DNA from: Escherichia coli
GTDB lineage: Bacteria; Pseudomonadota; Gammaproteobacteria; Enterobacterales; Enterobacteriaceae
Direction: 5' to 3' (one strand)
Assembly (NCBI RefSeq): GCF_003334335.1
Contig: NZ_QOWQ01000019.1
Length of the DNA stretch: 64,000 bases
A program made the translations under genes and the position numbers. Below the pieces are notes generated by a model. That model was not told where the DNA came from. It saw nothing but the letters and a program-made list of their open reading frames with translations, and did not search any database. Below, piece after piece: positions 3,101 to 5,859 of this stretch (its first letter is position 1; every line of letters begins with the position of its first letter).

Positions 3101-5859
3101 GCGCCATAGGCCGCCATACCTGCGCCGGCGTTATAAATAGTTATAACACCGCCCAATTGGTTAATTGCTGTTGCATTTTTCCCTGCACCACTATAACTAT
3201 CAGTACCAACTCCCACACCTGTACCGAAGTCAATGGCGCTGTTGCTAGCTATATCTCGCATTGCGGTAGTGTCATTTGCATCTACCCACATAGAATCCAG
3301 TGTAATTTTACCCTGATTTTCTGCTGTTGAATCTGCTATAGCAAGCATGCCGACACTACCACGACCATACAAATCAATGATGCCGCTGTCAGTATTGATA
3401 ATTGTGCTATTCGATTGAGCGACTAACCCTGTTATGCTACTGACATCGTTATTAAAAATAAATGAATTCGATGTGCCCGTTGAATACTTGTTAAATACGC
3501 TATGTTGTTCCGTCACTTTACCTGTGATCGTACCTGCATTAGTGGCGCTCCCTCCGTTAGTAGCCAGTAAAACAATGGGAGACGGTGCCGGATCTTTACC
3601 ATTTTGTAATAACGAGATCGTGCCACTATTTATACCTGTTGTATTTTCACCAGTAACAAAAGCAAAACCTAAATTCTGAATTTCAACAGTACCTTTATTA
3701 ACAATTTTCGCACCGGAATCAGCATAAGTAAGTTCTGGGGTTCTTGTCCCATGATGTTCAAAACTGTCAATATCCTGCATTGTTAGCGTAGCGCCACTGC
3801 CAATTTCCAGCAAAGCTTTATCCTGTACCCGAATAACCCCGGCAAACCCCAGAGGGAATTCTCCGCTGATTGTCGTATCTCCATTCAGATATACCGACGA
3901 CTCACCACTAACGACAATAACGCTGGTATAACTATATCCTGTGCGCAAGGAAGTAACCTGCGACCCATCTGCAAGCGCGTTTTTCTCTCCAATCAGTTCA
4001 AGTCCACCATTCATATTAACGGTATTGCCATCGCCAATCACAACCAGACCTGACGTTTTCTCTGCGCTGCCATCAAATAAATTACTCTGACGAGAAGTAA
4101 CCTCACTGTCTGATACAACAGTTAACTTTCCATCCAGCGTCACGTTATTATCACTGCCGTAAACGTTGATACCCACGGATGGATCGAAGAAATATTCCGC
4201 CGCATTGTCTGCGGTTTTATCCTTATCAACCAGAATGTTACCAGTGATATTCACTGTATTCGCATCGCCAGAAACGTTTATGCCCGTCGCTTTCTGCCCG
4301 ACCACTTTTAGATCTTTTGCCGCCAGCGTCACGCTGTTATTGTTGCCATTAAGATCTACCCCGGTCGAGAAATCGCCAACCTGCATACTGCCTGCCAGCG
4401 AAACCTTCCCACTGTTGGTTGTGATGCTGAACCCTGTCGCTTCATTGCTAACGTTAACATCACCCGTATTGGATACTGTTGCCCCCTCACCGTTGATGAG
4501 CACGCCAATCGATCCAGTATCGGAAACAACAATATCTCCTTTGTTGTTAACCGTGCCGTTGTCACCAATGTTCTCAACACCATGCGCACCGCCTGTAACA
4601 GTCAGGCTACCATCCAGATTTACAATGCCGATATTGCCCGCGATTTTGGTACCCGTGGAATCTTTTCCATCAACAGTGGTTTTTCCACTGTTATTCGCGG
4701 TGGCGTCGTTACCGTTGATCTGAGTGCCGGTGCCGCCATTGGTGATAGTGCTCTCGCCTTCGTTATTGACGATGGCCTGGTCGCCGTCAATCTGGATACC
4801 GATGGACTCCGGATCGGTGACGGTCATGGTGCCCTTGTTATCCACCGTTGCGCTGTCGCCGGTGATATCAATACCGTGACCGCCGCCGCTGACATCCAGA
4901 TCGCCGTCCTGAATAACTTTTCCGTTATTACCGTTGATTTCCGTACCGGTGGAATCCTTGCCGTCAACGGTGGTTTTGCCGTTGTTGTTTGCCGTGGCGT
5001 CATCACCATTAATCTGGGTGCCGGTGCCACCGTTGGTGATGGTGCTCTCGCCTTCGTTATTGACGATGGCCTTGTCACCGTCGATCTGGATACCCATGGA
5101 CTCCGGATCGGTGACGGTCATGGTGCCCTTGTTATCCACCGTCGCGCTGTCACCGGTGATATCAATACCGTGACCGCCGCCGCTGACATCCAGATCGCCG
5201 TCCTGAATCACTTTCCCGTTATTACCGTTGATTTCCGTACCGGTGGAATCTTTACCGTCAACGGTGGTTTTGCCATTGTTGTTTACTGTGGCATTATCAC
5301 CCGTAATAACAAGCTCACCGTTGTGATTATATTGCCACTTCGTTGCGCCATCTGCGCTCACCCCTTCAAGGGCAACAGTGTTATTCGCTTCATCAATCTG
5401 CCAAAGATTAATCGTTGCCTTACCGACCATTGCTATCTTGCAGAGATATAGTCCCGTCAGCATTCTCGGTATAAGTAAAAACTGAATCGCGAATAGTTAA
5501 CGTTTTTTCTGTTTTATCGAGAATAACGTCATTATTAAACGAAACCGGTTTGGGAGGTGTAGGCGTATCATCCGGATCGTCCGGTATTCGTCGTTTAGTT
5601 CCACTACGGCTAAGGCCGTGATTAACGCAGCAGCGCCTGTGGAAAGCCATGGCATCAGGTTTTGTTCGACTAAAGGAGAGCATTCAGAGGGTAAGCGTTT
5701 AAGCTCTTCCGGACTGAGTTTTCCTGGGTCTGCCGGACAAGTCACATTGGTATTTTTCTTTTCACCTGTGGTGGTTTCTACCTCTGTGATATCTGCCGCC
5801 CAACCCTGACCACTCAGAGCTAATGCAATACAGGCCGACAATAGAGTTTTCCTTTGCAT
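193..5859 (-). pseudogene. ydbA: ydbA-like autotransporter adhesin, apparently disrupted near the 5' end
   Basis: The 1756-aa ORF (193-5463) is a Gly/Thr/Asn-rich passenger with a C-terminal beta-barrel ending in F. The signal peptide MQRKTLLSACIALALSGQGWA is in a separate 120-aa ORF (5497-5859), same frame but separated by a TAA at 5497-5499. Passenger-like sequence between them (TPTPPKPVSF...ENADGTISLQDSNGR) is in a different frame (5420-5683), implying frame changes near 5590 and 5430. Confidence 0.55.
4630..5330 (-). repeat. Coding tandem repeat, about 2.3 copies of a 300-bp (100-aa) unit, inside the autotransporter passenger
   Basis: Near-identical DNA recurs at a 300-nt period (for example gttattaccgttgatttccgtaccggtgg at about 4924 and 5224). 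The protein shows NNNGKTTVDGKDSTGTEINGNNGKVIQDGDLDVSGGGHGIDITGDSATVDNKGTMTVTDPES repeated. Confidence 0.8.

What the first reader, a model, noticed from the sequence alone, without database searches (positions are those of the whole stretch)
4630..5330. Near-perfect 300-bp tandem duplication inside the autotransporter passenger
About 2.3 copies of a 100-aa unit are nearly identical at the DNA level, which indicates recent duplication or gene conversion. Such repeats are hotspots for copy-number change by slipped recombination (altering adhesin length) and for assembly error. The repeat also creates long spurious ORFs on the opposite strand, such as 4582-5451.
Basis: seen in the sequence. Interest (0 to 1): 0.35.

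Follow-up and report, generated by a model that had tools for sequence, protein, structure and literature searches.

The report
Variable 98-residue repeat in ydbA/upaH
The repeat is real: it is the known 294-bp (98-amino-acid) module of the E. coli YdbA/UpaH surface autotransporter, whose copy number differs between strains through unequal recombination, and in this strain the gene is already broken, so the finding is correct but ordinary.

Summary
The tandem repeat exists, with corrections. The period is 294 bp (98 aa), not 300. There are two full copies (5283-4990 and 4989-4696, minus strand) that are 92.9% identical in DNA and 97% in protein. A third, decayed copy (4695-4402) is about 58-60% identical.

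The gene is ydbA, the K-12-type allele of the autotransporter that occupies the upaH locus in uropathogenic E. coli. Each 98-aa unit is predicted to form four turns of the passenger beta-helix.

Copy number varies between strains. Intact or reconstructed alleles of 1726, 1824, 1922 and 2020 aa differ by exact 98-aa steps. 120 database representatives carry 1-6 units. B2 strains, including CFT073, carry about 25 half-units. Chimeric units mark the crossover points: the window's unit 2 is the 5' part of K-12 unit B joined to the 3' part of K-12 unit C.

The duplication is not recent (dS 0.33, dN/dS about 0.04). The antisense ORF 4582-5451 is a shadow ORF that lengthens by 98 codons per unit.

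In this window the gene is a pseudogene, with a 103-bp deletion and a 1-bp insertion near its 5' end. The repeat biology of UpaH is already published, so interest is low.

The parts
193..5859 (-). ydbA (BigA/YdbA-family, upaH-locus) classical autotransporter gene. It is disrupted here: ORF 5859-5497 carries the signal peptide, and ORF 5463-193 (1756 aa) carries the rest.
   Evidence: ORF list and translation. 100% identical to K-12 ydbA over 78-3690 and 5588-6300, next to paaY/paaX. Pfam on the window's own ORF.
5797..5859 (-). Probable Sec signal peptide (MQRKTLLSACIALALSGQGWA/AD)
   Evidence: Read from the translation. Cleavage site is inferred by eye and was not predicted with a tool.
5588..5589 (-). 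Junction of a 103-bp deletion in the acidic, proline-rich linker, relative to K-12 and all other alleles examined. It shifts the frame and leads to a TAA stop (ORF ends at 5497).
   Evidence: Pairwise alignment. BLAST breaks at 5588 in every top genome hit.
5424..5425 (-). 1-bp insertion (extra G: GGTCGTAAGG becomes GGTCGGTAAGG). It returns to the original frame downstream of the stop.
   Evidence: Alignment.
5302..5421 (-). C-terminal half of the BigA_N beta-barrel domain (PF25784, model positions 42-80 of 80). The N-terminal half lies upstream, before the 1-bp insertion and therefore in another reading frame.
   Evidence: Pfam on the window ORF. Full domain at residues 140-220 in the intact allele of strain TST3.
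4990..5283 (-). Repeat unit 1 (98 aa, four predicted beta-helix rungs). Identical to unit A of K-12.
4696..4989 (-). Repeat unit 2, 92.9% identical to unit 1. It is a chimera: 5' part as K-12 unit B, 3' part as K-12 unit C. The crossover lies within unit positions 76-198.
   Evidence: Variable-site table.
4402..4695 (-). Repeat unit 3, the old degenerate terminal copy (58-60% nt identity). Its first ~55 nt are still similar, which gives the '0.2-0.3' extra copy.
4642..5301 (.). Array as called by Tandem Repeats Finder (period 294, 2.2 copies, 90% matches)
4582..5451 (+). Antisense shadow ORF (289 aa), not a gene
   Evidence: Length scales by 98 codons per unit across alleles. No meaningful NCBIfam match.
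3691..3737 (-). 47 bp of native ydbA that in K-12 lie between the IS30 and IS2 insertions. Both sites are empty here.
1240..1491 (-). BigA_beta sandwich domain (PF25783), ORF residues 1325-1408
286..876 (-). Autotransporter beta-barrel translocator domain (PF03797), ORF residues 1530-1726

Best explanation
Window 4402-5283 (minus strand) is the repeat region of ydbA. This is the phylogroup-A/K-12-type allele of the large type Va autotransporter that sits at the pdxI-proximal locus, where CFT073 carries its 8,538-bp repetitive autotransporter gene (upaH by my recollection).

The unit is 294 bp = 98 aa. It consists of four 24/25-residue rungs of a right-handed parallel beta-helix, placed just after the BigA_N domain. 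Because 294 is a multiple of three and a unit is a whole number of rungs, gain or loss of a unit keeps both the reading frame and the solenoid fold.

Unequal homologous recombination between misaligned units adds or removes whole units and leaves chimeric units at the crossover. Intact proteins therefore differ in 98-aa steps, about 19 A of helix per unit (inferred from the usual 4.8 A rise per rung). The window's two-unit allele is the product of a crossover between units B and C of the three-unit K-12-type allele.

The copies are old and are kept alike in protein sequence by purifying selection, with occasional recombinational homogenisation. In this strain the gene is already inactivated upstream of the repeat.

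Shown here: the repeat, the allelic series, the chimeras, the domain order and the predicted fold. Inferred: the recombination mechanism (RecA-dependent exchange versus replication slippage), the physical length change, and any effect on function.
For: - Repeat.
- Gene identity and locus.
- Allelic series in exact 294-bp steps:
  - XYEH3934: 5181 bp
  - TST3: 5475 bp
  - window, 20A24 and MC1061 type: 5769 bp
  - K-12 and LR-64-2 type: 6063 bp.
- Chimeric units with different breakpoints: window and MC1061 carry B/C; TST3 carries A/(B/C); XYEH3934 carries A/D; J53-hybrid carries A followed by C.
- 1-6 units in 120 cluster representatives.
- In B2 strains the same locus holds genes of 8316-8538 bp with TRF periods of 147, 294, 441, 735, 882 and 1176 bp. 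About 25 half-units of 49 aa are present.
- Rung structure: autocorrelation peaks at 98, 49, 73 and 25 aa. The AlphaFold2 model has pLDDT above 90 across the repeats, with three strands every 24-25 residues. All top Foldseek hits are beta-helix proteins such as Fap2, Pet, pertactin and Ag43, but the scores are weak.
- Age and selection: dS 0.33, dN 0.013.
- Lineage-specific homogenisation: units within the divergent protein P0117 are up to 98% alike but at most 88% like K-12-type units.
Against: - No read-level data exist for this assembly, so its own copy number cannot be verified.
- The direction of each event (deletion from three units versus duplication from fewer) is inferred from site patterns only.
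- Some discordant K-12-derived assemblies (MC1061, J53-hybrid, PG20180063) could be assembly artefacts rather than real events.
- Foldseek matches are not significant (best E 6e-3), and the alignment behind the model has only 5 sequences.
- The identity of the CFT073 gene with published UpaH rests on locus, size and my recollection. The primary papers could not be read.
Confidence: 0.9

Rival explanations
1. Recent duplication: the two good copies arose very recently in this lineage.
For: High identity at offset 294. Copy number differs even among K-12 laboratory derivatives.
Against: - There are 21 differences in 294 nt, 18 of them synonymous, giving dS 0.33.
- The same units A, B and C recur unchanged in unrelated strains.
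- Unit 2 is a recombinant of two pre-existing diverged units.
Confidence: 0.05
2. Assembly artefact: the copy number in this window is wrong, because of a collapsed or expanded repeat.
For: - Draft assemblies often break inside the array.
- CFT073 upaH was misassembled.
- K-12 derivatives give discordant counts.
Against: Exactly the same two-unit sequence, with 100% identity over 78-5588 apart from the 1-bp insertion, is present in several independent complete genomes such as P13-6 and DLI.6n. The allele therefore exists in nature. Units differ at 21 sites, enough for long reads to resolve them.
Confidence: 0.07
3. The + strand ORF 4582-5451 is a real overlapping gene and the repeat belongs to it.
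For: A 289-aa ATG-started ORF exists.
Against: - Its stop-free length tracks unit number exactly.
- Similar antisense ORFs occur elsewhere in the same gene.
- There is no family match: 15.8 bits against a cut-off of 253.
- The sense frame carries Pfam domains, thousands of homologues and dN/dS of about 0.04.
Confidence: 0.01

Closest known systems
UpaH of uropathogenic E. coli CFT073 (Allsopp et al. 2010, 2012; cited in PMC5595812, PMC3419190, PMC8281228, PMC12525524)
   Same: - Same chromosomal locus next to pdxI/ydbC.
- Same domain order and a similar N-terminus and C-terminal region. BLASTP gives 53% identity over about 1640 aa at the C-terminal end.
- Same repeat family with a 147/294-bp period.
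- Described in the literature as highly repetitive, misassembled in the first CFT073 genome, and variable between strains in the passenger, with effects on biofilm formation.
   Different: - The window allele has 2 good units plus 1 degenerate unit (12 rungs). The CFT073 allele has about 25 half-units (about 50 rungs) in a protein of 2,845 aa.
- DNA identity is only about 85-88%.
- The window copy is a pseudogene.
- I did not compare directly with the published UpaH sequence (ACX47353.1).
ydbA pseudogene of E. coli K-12 (MG1655 type)
   Same: 100% identical over 78-3690 and 5588-6300, with the same units A and D.
   Different: - K-12 has three good units (A, B, C) and is split by IS2 and IS30. 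The window has A plus a B/C chimera and no IS.
- The window carries a 103-bp deletion and a 1-bp insertion not seen in K-12.
BigA autotransporter adhesin of Salmonella (NCBIfam NF033178; Pfam BigA_N and BigA_beta)
   Same: Shares BigA_N, BigA_beta and the autotransporter barrel.
   Different: The NCBIfam score is 1026 bits against a cut-off of 3400, and the best stretch covers only the C-terminal ~800 residues. It is a relative, not an equivalog.
Surface proteins with variable numbers of near-identical tandem units. Examples recalled from memory: streptococcal alpha C/Rib, staphylococcal Bap, the repeat-rich passengers of AIDA-I/Ag43/TibA.
   Same: In-frame units, copy-number polymorphism through recombination, and assembly problems.
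   Different: Here a unit is four rungs of one continuous beta-helix rather than an independently folding domain. This comparison was not tested here.

Membership tests
Classical (type Va) autotransporter | C-terminal beta-barrel translocator domain (Pfam PF03797) | tested here: met
   Window ORF residues 1530-1726, E 8.5e-19.
Classical (type Va) autotransporter | N-terminal Sec signal peptide in the same reading frame as the passenger | tested here: not met
   A signal-like N-terminus is present in ORF 5859-5497, but it is separated from the 1756-aa ORF by a frameshift and a stop. Intact alleles (TST3, XYEH3934, LR-64-2) have it in frame. The window copy is therefore a pseudogene of a member.
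Classical (type Va) autotransporter | Beta-helical passenger | tested here: met
   AlphaFold2 model: three strands per 24-25 residues, pLDDT above 90. Best Foldseek matches are beta-helix proteins, with weak scores.
BigA/YdbA family | BigA_N beta-barrel domain (PF25784) and BigA_beta sandwich (PF25783) | tested here: met
   The window has BigA_N positions 42-80 only (the domain is cut by the frameshift) and BigA_beta in full. Both are complete in the intact TST3 allele.
BigA equivalog (NCBIfam NF033178) | Score above the curated cut-off of 3400 bits | tested here: not met
   1026 bits.
UpaH (CFT073) orthologue | Same locus and homologous ends | tested here: met
   The CFT073 gene of 8,538 bp lies between pdxI and ydbL. 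The window gene lies next to the same downstream region, which is 100% identical to K-12 from position 78, where pdxI follows. In the window's strain an IS1414 intervenes. B2 strains lack paa at this site. BLASTP over the whole length.
UpaH (CFT073) orthologue | Identity of the CFT073 locus gene with the published UpaH sequence (ACX47353.1) | not testable with these tools
The size of 8,538 bp / 2,845 aa matches what I recall for upaH.
Variable-number tandem repeat | Head-to-tail units whose number differs between strains in whole-unit steps | tested here: met

The most novel reading that the evidence does not exclude
The number of 98-aa four-rung modules is a selected tuning device for the reach or antigenicity of YdbA/UpaH, not just recombinational noise. 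The protein sequence of the module is under strong purifying selection (dN/dS about 0.04), while its number ranges from 0-6 extra units in K-12-like lineages to about 12 unit-equivalents in B2, with lineage-specific homogenisation. The inactive K-12 copy, where the array still changes among laboratory derivatives, could serve as a neutral reporter of unequal crossover rates.
Probability: 0.25. Interest if true: 0.35.

Novelty: already known. Interest (0 to 1): 0.17.

Why it matters
There are three practical consequences.
- Annotation and assembly of this locus are unreliable in short-read genomes. Contigs break in the array and copy number can be miscounted.
- Gene-presence or typing schemes based on upaH/ydbA must allow for length alleles.
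- The long antisense ORF should not be annotated.

Biologically, this is a clean example of how a beta-helix adhesin changes length in whole four-rung steps. However, the repetitive nature and strain-to-strain heterogeneity of UpaH are already published, and in this strain the gene is dead.

Tried and rejected
- **Paralogue idea.** K-12-derived hits at 2.1-2.3 Mb on the other strand first suggested a paralogue (yejO) sharing the repeat. The annotation showed they are ydbA itself in genomes with different coordinates or orientation.
- **Engineered-strain idea.** The IS-free ydbA and the in-frame paaA-paaK fusion suggested an engineered IS-free K-12. I rejected this for three reasons. The 47 bp is simply the native segment between the two K-12 IS elements. 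Natural isolates carry the same IS-free allele. Five natural genomes share the paa junction.
- **Solved structures.** A sequence search of the PDB found nothing. Foldseek against the PDB gave only weak beta-helix matches.
- **Literature.** The two primary UpaH papers (PMC2849410, PMC3486098) are not held. Full-text searches found no paper linking 'ydbA' and 'upaH'.
- **Source names.** An exact-sequence look-up of the B2 proteins, meant to retrieve a 'UpaH' name from a source, found them absent from the collection.
- **Antisense ORFs.** NCBIfam on the antisense ORFs gave only a chance-level hit.

Full report
**1. Observation**

Tandem Repeats Finder reports a single array in the first 12 kb: 4642-5301, period 294, 2.2 copies, 90% matches, no indels. 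In an offset scan across 4630-5330, only offset 294 stands out, at 84.8% identity. Every other offset from 280 to 309, including 300, gives 19-36%. Two hundred shuffles of 4000-5900 never exceeded 35% at any offset from 100 to 600, against 87% observed.

In coding register (minus strand) the units are 5283-4990, 4989-4696 and 4695-4402. Units 1 and 2 differ at 21 of 294 nt (92.9%) and 3 of 98 aa. Unit 3 is 58-60% identical to them in DNA, and only its first ~55 nt are still close.

The period is 294 bp / 98 aa rather than 300 / 100, and 'near-perfect' overstates 93%.

**2. What the gene is**

The repeat lies in a 1756-aa minus-strand ORF (5463-193). Pfam on that ORF finds three domains:
- the C-terminal half of BigA_N (PF25784);
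- BigA_beta (PF25783), residues 1325-1408;
- the autotransporter barrel (PF03797), residues 1530-1726.

NCBIfam gives only a sub-threshold match to BigA, at 1026 bits against a cut-off of 3400.

The region is 100% identical to K-12 ydbA over 78-3690 and 5588-6300 and sits next to paaY/paaX. Unlike K-12, the gene is not interrupted by IS30 and IS2. The 47 bp at 3691-3737 are the native segment that lies between those two elements in K-12.

The window copy carries two lesions near its 5' end:
- a 103-bp deletion in the acidic, proline-rich linker (junction 5588/5589);
- an extra G at 5424/5425.

The shifted frame between them runs into a stop. ORF 5859-5497 carries the signal-peptide-like N-terminus, and the large ORF has none. 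The gene is a pseudogene here. No complete E. coli genome among the 5,426 searched aligned across the deletion junction in the best hits.

**3. Anatomy of the unit**

The 98 residues split into four segments of 24/25 aa with the motif xATVxNxGxxxVxGxxSxGIxIxGD. BLOSUM autocorrelation in the array peaks at 98, 49, 73 and 25 aa.

I ran an AlphaFold2 model of residues 136-690 of the intact-length two-unit allele of strain 20A24, from a 5-sequence alignment. Mean pLDDT is 82, and it exceeds 90 throughout the repeats. The model shows three short strands every 24-25 residues, starting at 105, 129, 154, 178, 203 and so on. That is one beta-helix rung per segment and four rungs per unit.

All the best Foldseek matches in the PDB are right-handed beta-helix proteins: Fap2, Pet, Hbp, pertactin, Ag43, TibA, pectate-lyase-like enzymes and tailspikes. 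None is significant (best E 6e-3). No solved structure matches by sequence.

With the textbook rise of about 4.8 A per rung, a unit adds about 19 A. This figure is an inference.

**4. Variation between strains**

Complete genomes give an exact 294-bp ladder.

| Strain or type | ydbA length | Protein | Status |
|---|---|---|---|
| XYEH3934 | 5181 bp | 1726 aa | intact |
| TST3 | 5475 bp | 1824 aa | intact |
| 20A24 (same array length in the window and in MC1061) | 5769 bp | 1922 codons | internal stop in 20A24 |
| K-12 type (intact in LR-64-2) | 6063 bp | 2020 aa | split by IS2 and IS30 in K-12 |

The table of variable sites shows how these alleles relate. K-12 carries units A, B, C and a degenerate unit D.
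- **Window and MC1061:** unit 2 has the B pattern up to unit position 75 and the C pattern from position 199. This is a crossover inside the 123 nt where B and C are identical.
- **20A24 and J53-p1-pV-hybrid-1:** these carry A followed directly by C.
- **TST3:** its single good unit is A up to position 72 and B/C-type from position 75.
- **XYEH3934:** only an A/D chimera remains.

These are the expected products of unequal exchange between misaligned units.

Among the 120 best cluster representatives of a protein search, the unit (at least 60% aa identity) occurs 1 to 6 times, and lengths run from 1687 to 2309 aa. The 2020-aa representative stands for 10,492 sequences. The 40 members read from that cluster include both 1922-aa and 2020-aa forms.

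In a divergent lineage (P0117, 68% identical overall), the six units are up to 98% alike among themselves but at most 88% like K-12-type units. This indicates lineage-specific expansion or homogenisation.

**5. Link to UpaH**

In B2 strains the same locus lies between pdxI and ydbL, and the paa-fea-tynA block is absent there. It holds genes of 8316 bp (APEC E18006) and 8538 bp (UPEC957C, CFT073, Nissle 1917, ATCC 25922, ABU 83972).

TRF finds periods of 147, 294, 441, 735, 882 and 1176 bp, all multiples of 147. About 25 half-units of 49 aa, roughly 50 rungs, span residues 228-1450.

Papers available to me make three relevant statements:
- upaH of CFT073 is 'highly repetitive' and was misassembled in the original genome (PMC5595812, PMC3419190);
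- its variants differ in biofilm formation (PMC12525524, PMC5595812).

From memory, upaH is 8.535 kb and encodes 2,845 aa with about 50 imperfect repeats. This matches the CFT073 gene found here. I could not read the primary papers or compare with the deposited sequence.

**6. Age and selection**

Units 1 and 2 differ by 18 synonymous and 3 non-synonymous changes (dS 0.33, dN 0.013, ratio about 0.04). The copies are old and their protein sequence is conserved. The duplication is not recent. Recombination between existing units produced this allele.

**7. Instability and assembly**

Nearly all K-12 derivatives listed carry three good units, including MG1655, C600, DH1, DH5alpha, BW25113, EMG2 and WG1. 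Three assemblies deviate:
- MC1061 has two units, including the same B/C chimera as the window.
- J53-p1-pV-hybrid-1 has two units with a different breakpoint, although another J53 assembly has three.
- The mouse-gut isolate PG20180063 keeps three units, but units 2 and 3 are mosaic.

These deviations are either real events in laboratory lineages or assembly errors. I cannot tell which.

Seven of nine 'partial' proteins read from the big cluster begin inside the array. Draft contigs therefore end there.

**8. Antisense ORF**

ORF 4582-5451 (+) exists. The longest antisense stop-free stretch across the array is 194, 292, 390 and 488 aa in alleles with 0, 1, 2 and 3 extra units. It matches no protein family beyond chance. 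Other antisense ORFs occur in non-repeated parts of the gene. It is a shadow ORF of a gene rich in ACC, GGC, AAC, GGT, GAT and ATC codons.

**9. Verdict**

The finding is correct and its interpretation largely holds. It describes the known repeat region of the YdbA/UpaH autotransporter, in a short allele that is also a pseudogene in this strain. The unit-level allelic series, the crossover points, the four-rung reading of the unit and the variation among K-12 derivatives are useful detail, but they do not define a new kind of feature. Novelty: already known. Interest: low.

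Noticed in passing
window 5424-5589: ydbA carries a 103-bp deletion (junction 5588/5589) and a 1-bp G insertion (5424/5425), a net change of -102 bp. The shifted frame between them contains a stop, so the gene is a pseudogene. Every top hit among 5,426 complete E. coli genomes breaks at 5588, so the deletion looks private to this strain or assembly.
   Followed up: yes
window 7813-9996 (junction about 9122/9123): An in-frame PaaA'-'PaaK fusion ORF of 727 aa. About 291 codons of paaA are joined to paaK from codon 3, which deletes paaB-paaJ of the phenylacetate pathway. The identical junction occurs in 5 of 5,426 complete genomes (EC416, LR-29-1, GDSC2BY4G, EEC_W5, PEC1009), so it is a natural deletion.
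   Followed up: partly
window 1-77: The window starts in sequence that does not match K-12. It matches strains with an IS1414 (IS256-family) element inserted between pdxI and ydbA, for example LR-64-2.
   Followed up: partly
window 3691-3737; L001 4833-7438: The IS30 and IS2 elements that split K-12 ydbA are two separate insertions 47 bp apart. The window shows both empty sites.
   Followed up: yes
L001, L009, L010 (K-12 derivatives): Assemblies of MC1061 and J53-p1-pV-hybrid-1 have one unit fewer than other K-12 strains, with different breakpoints. PG20180063 has mosaic units 2 and 3. These are either real recombination in laboratory lineages or assembly errors.
   Followed up: partly
L007, L008, L011 (B2 strains, including CFT073): At the same locus the repeat region is expanded to about 25 half-units of 147 bp, with higher-order periods up to 1176 bp. 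The 5' 4,536 bp of the gene, which include the repeat region, are 100% identical in CFT073, Nissle 1917, ABU 83972 and ATCC 25922.
   Followed up: partly
database names: Several records name this autotransporter 'EntS/YbdA MFS transporter'. This is probably a confusion of the gene names ydbA and ybdA that has propagated. Other names include 'S-layer family protein' and 'pectate lyase-fold domain-containing protein'.
   Followed up: no
window about 6021-6086 (+), AT-rich spacer 5900-6190: RefSeq annotates a 21-aa hypothetical ORF (WP_010723099.1) in the AT-rich ydbA-paaY intergenic region in every related genome examined. I did not examine it.
   Followed up: no
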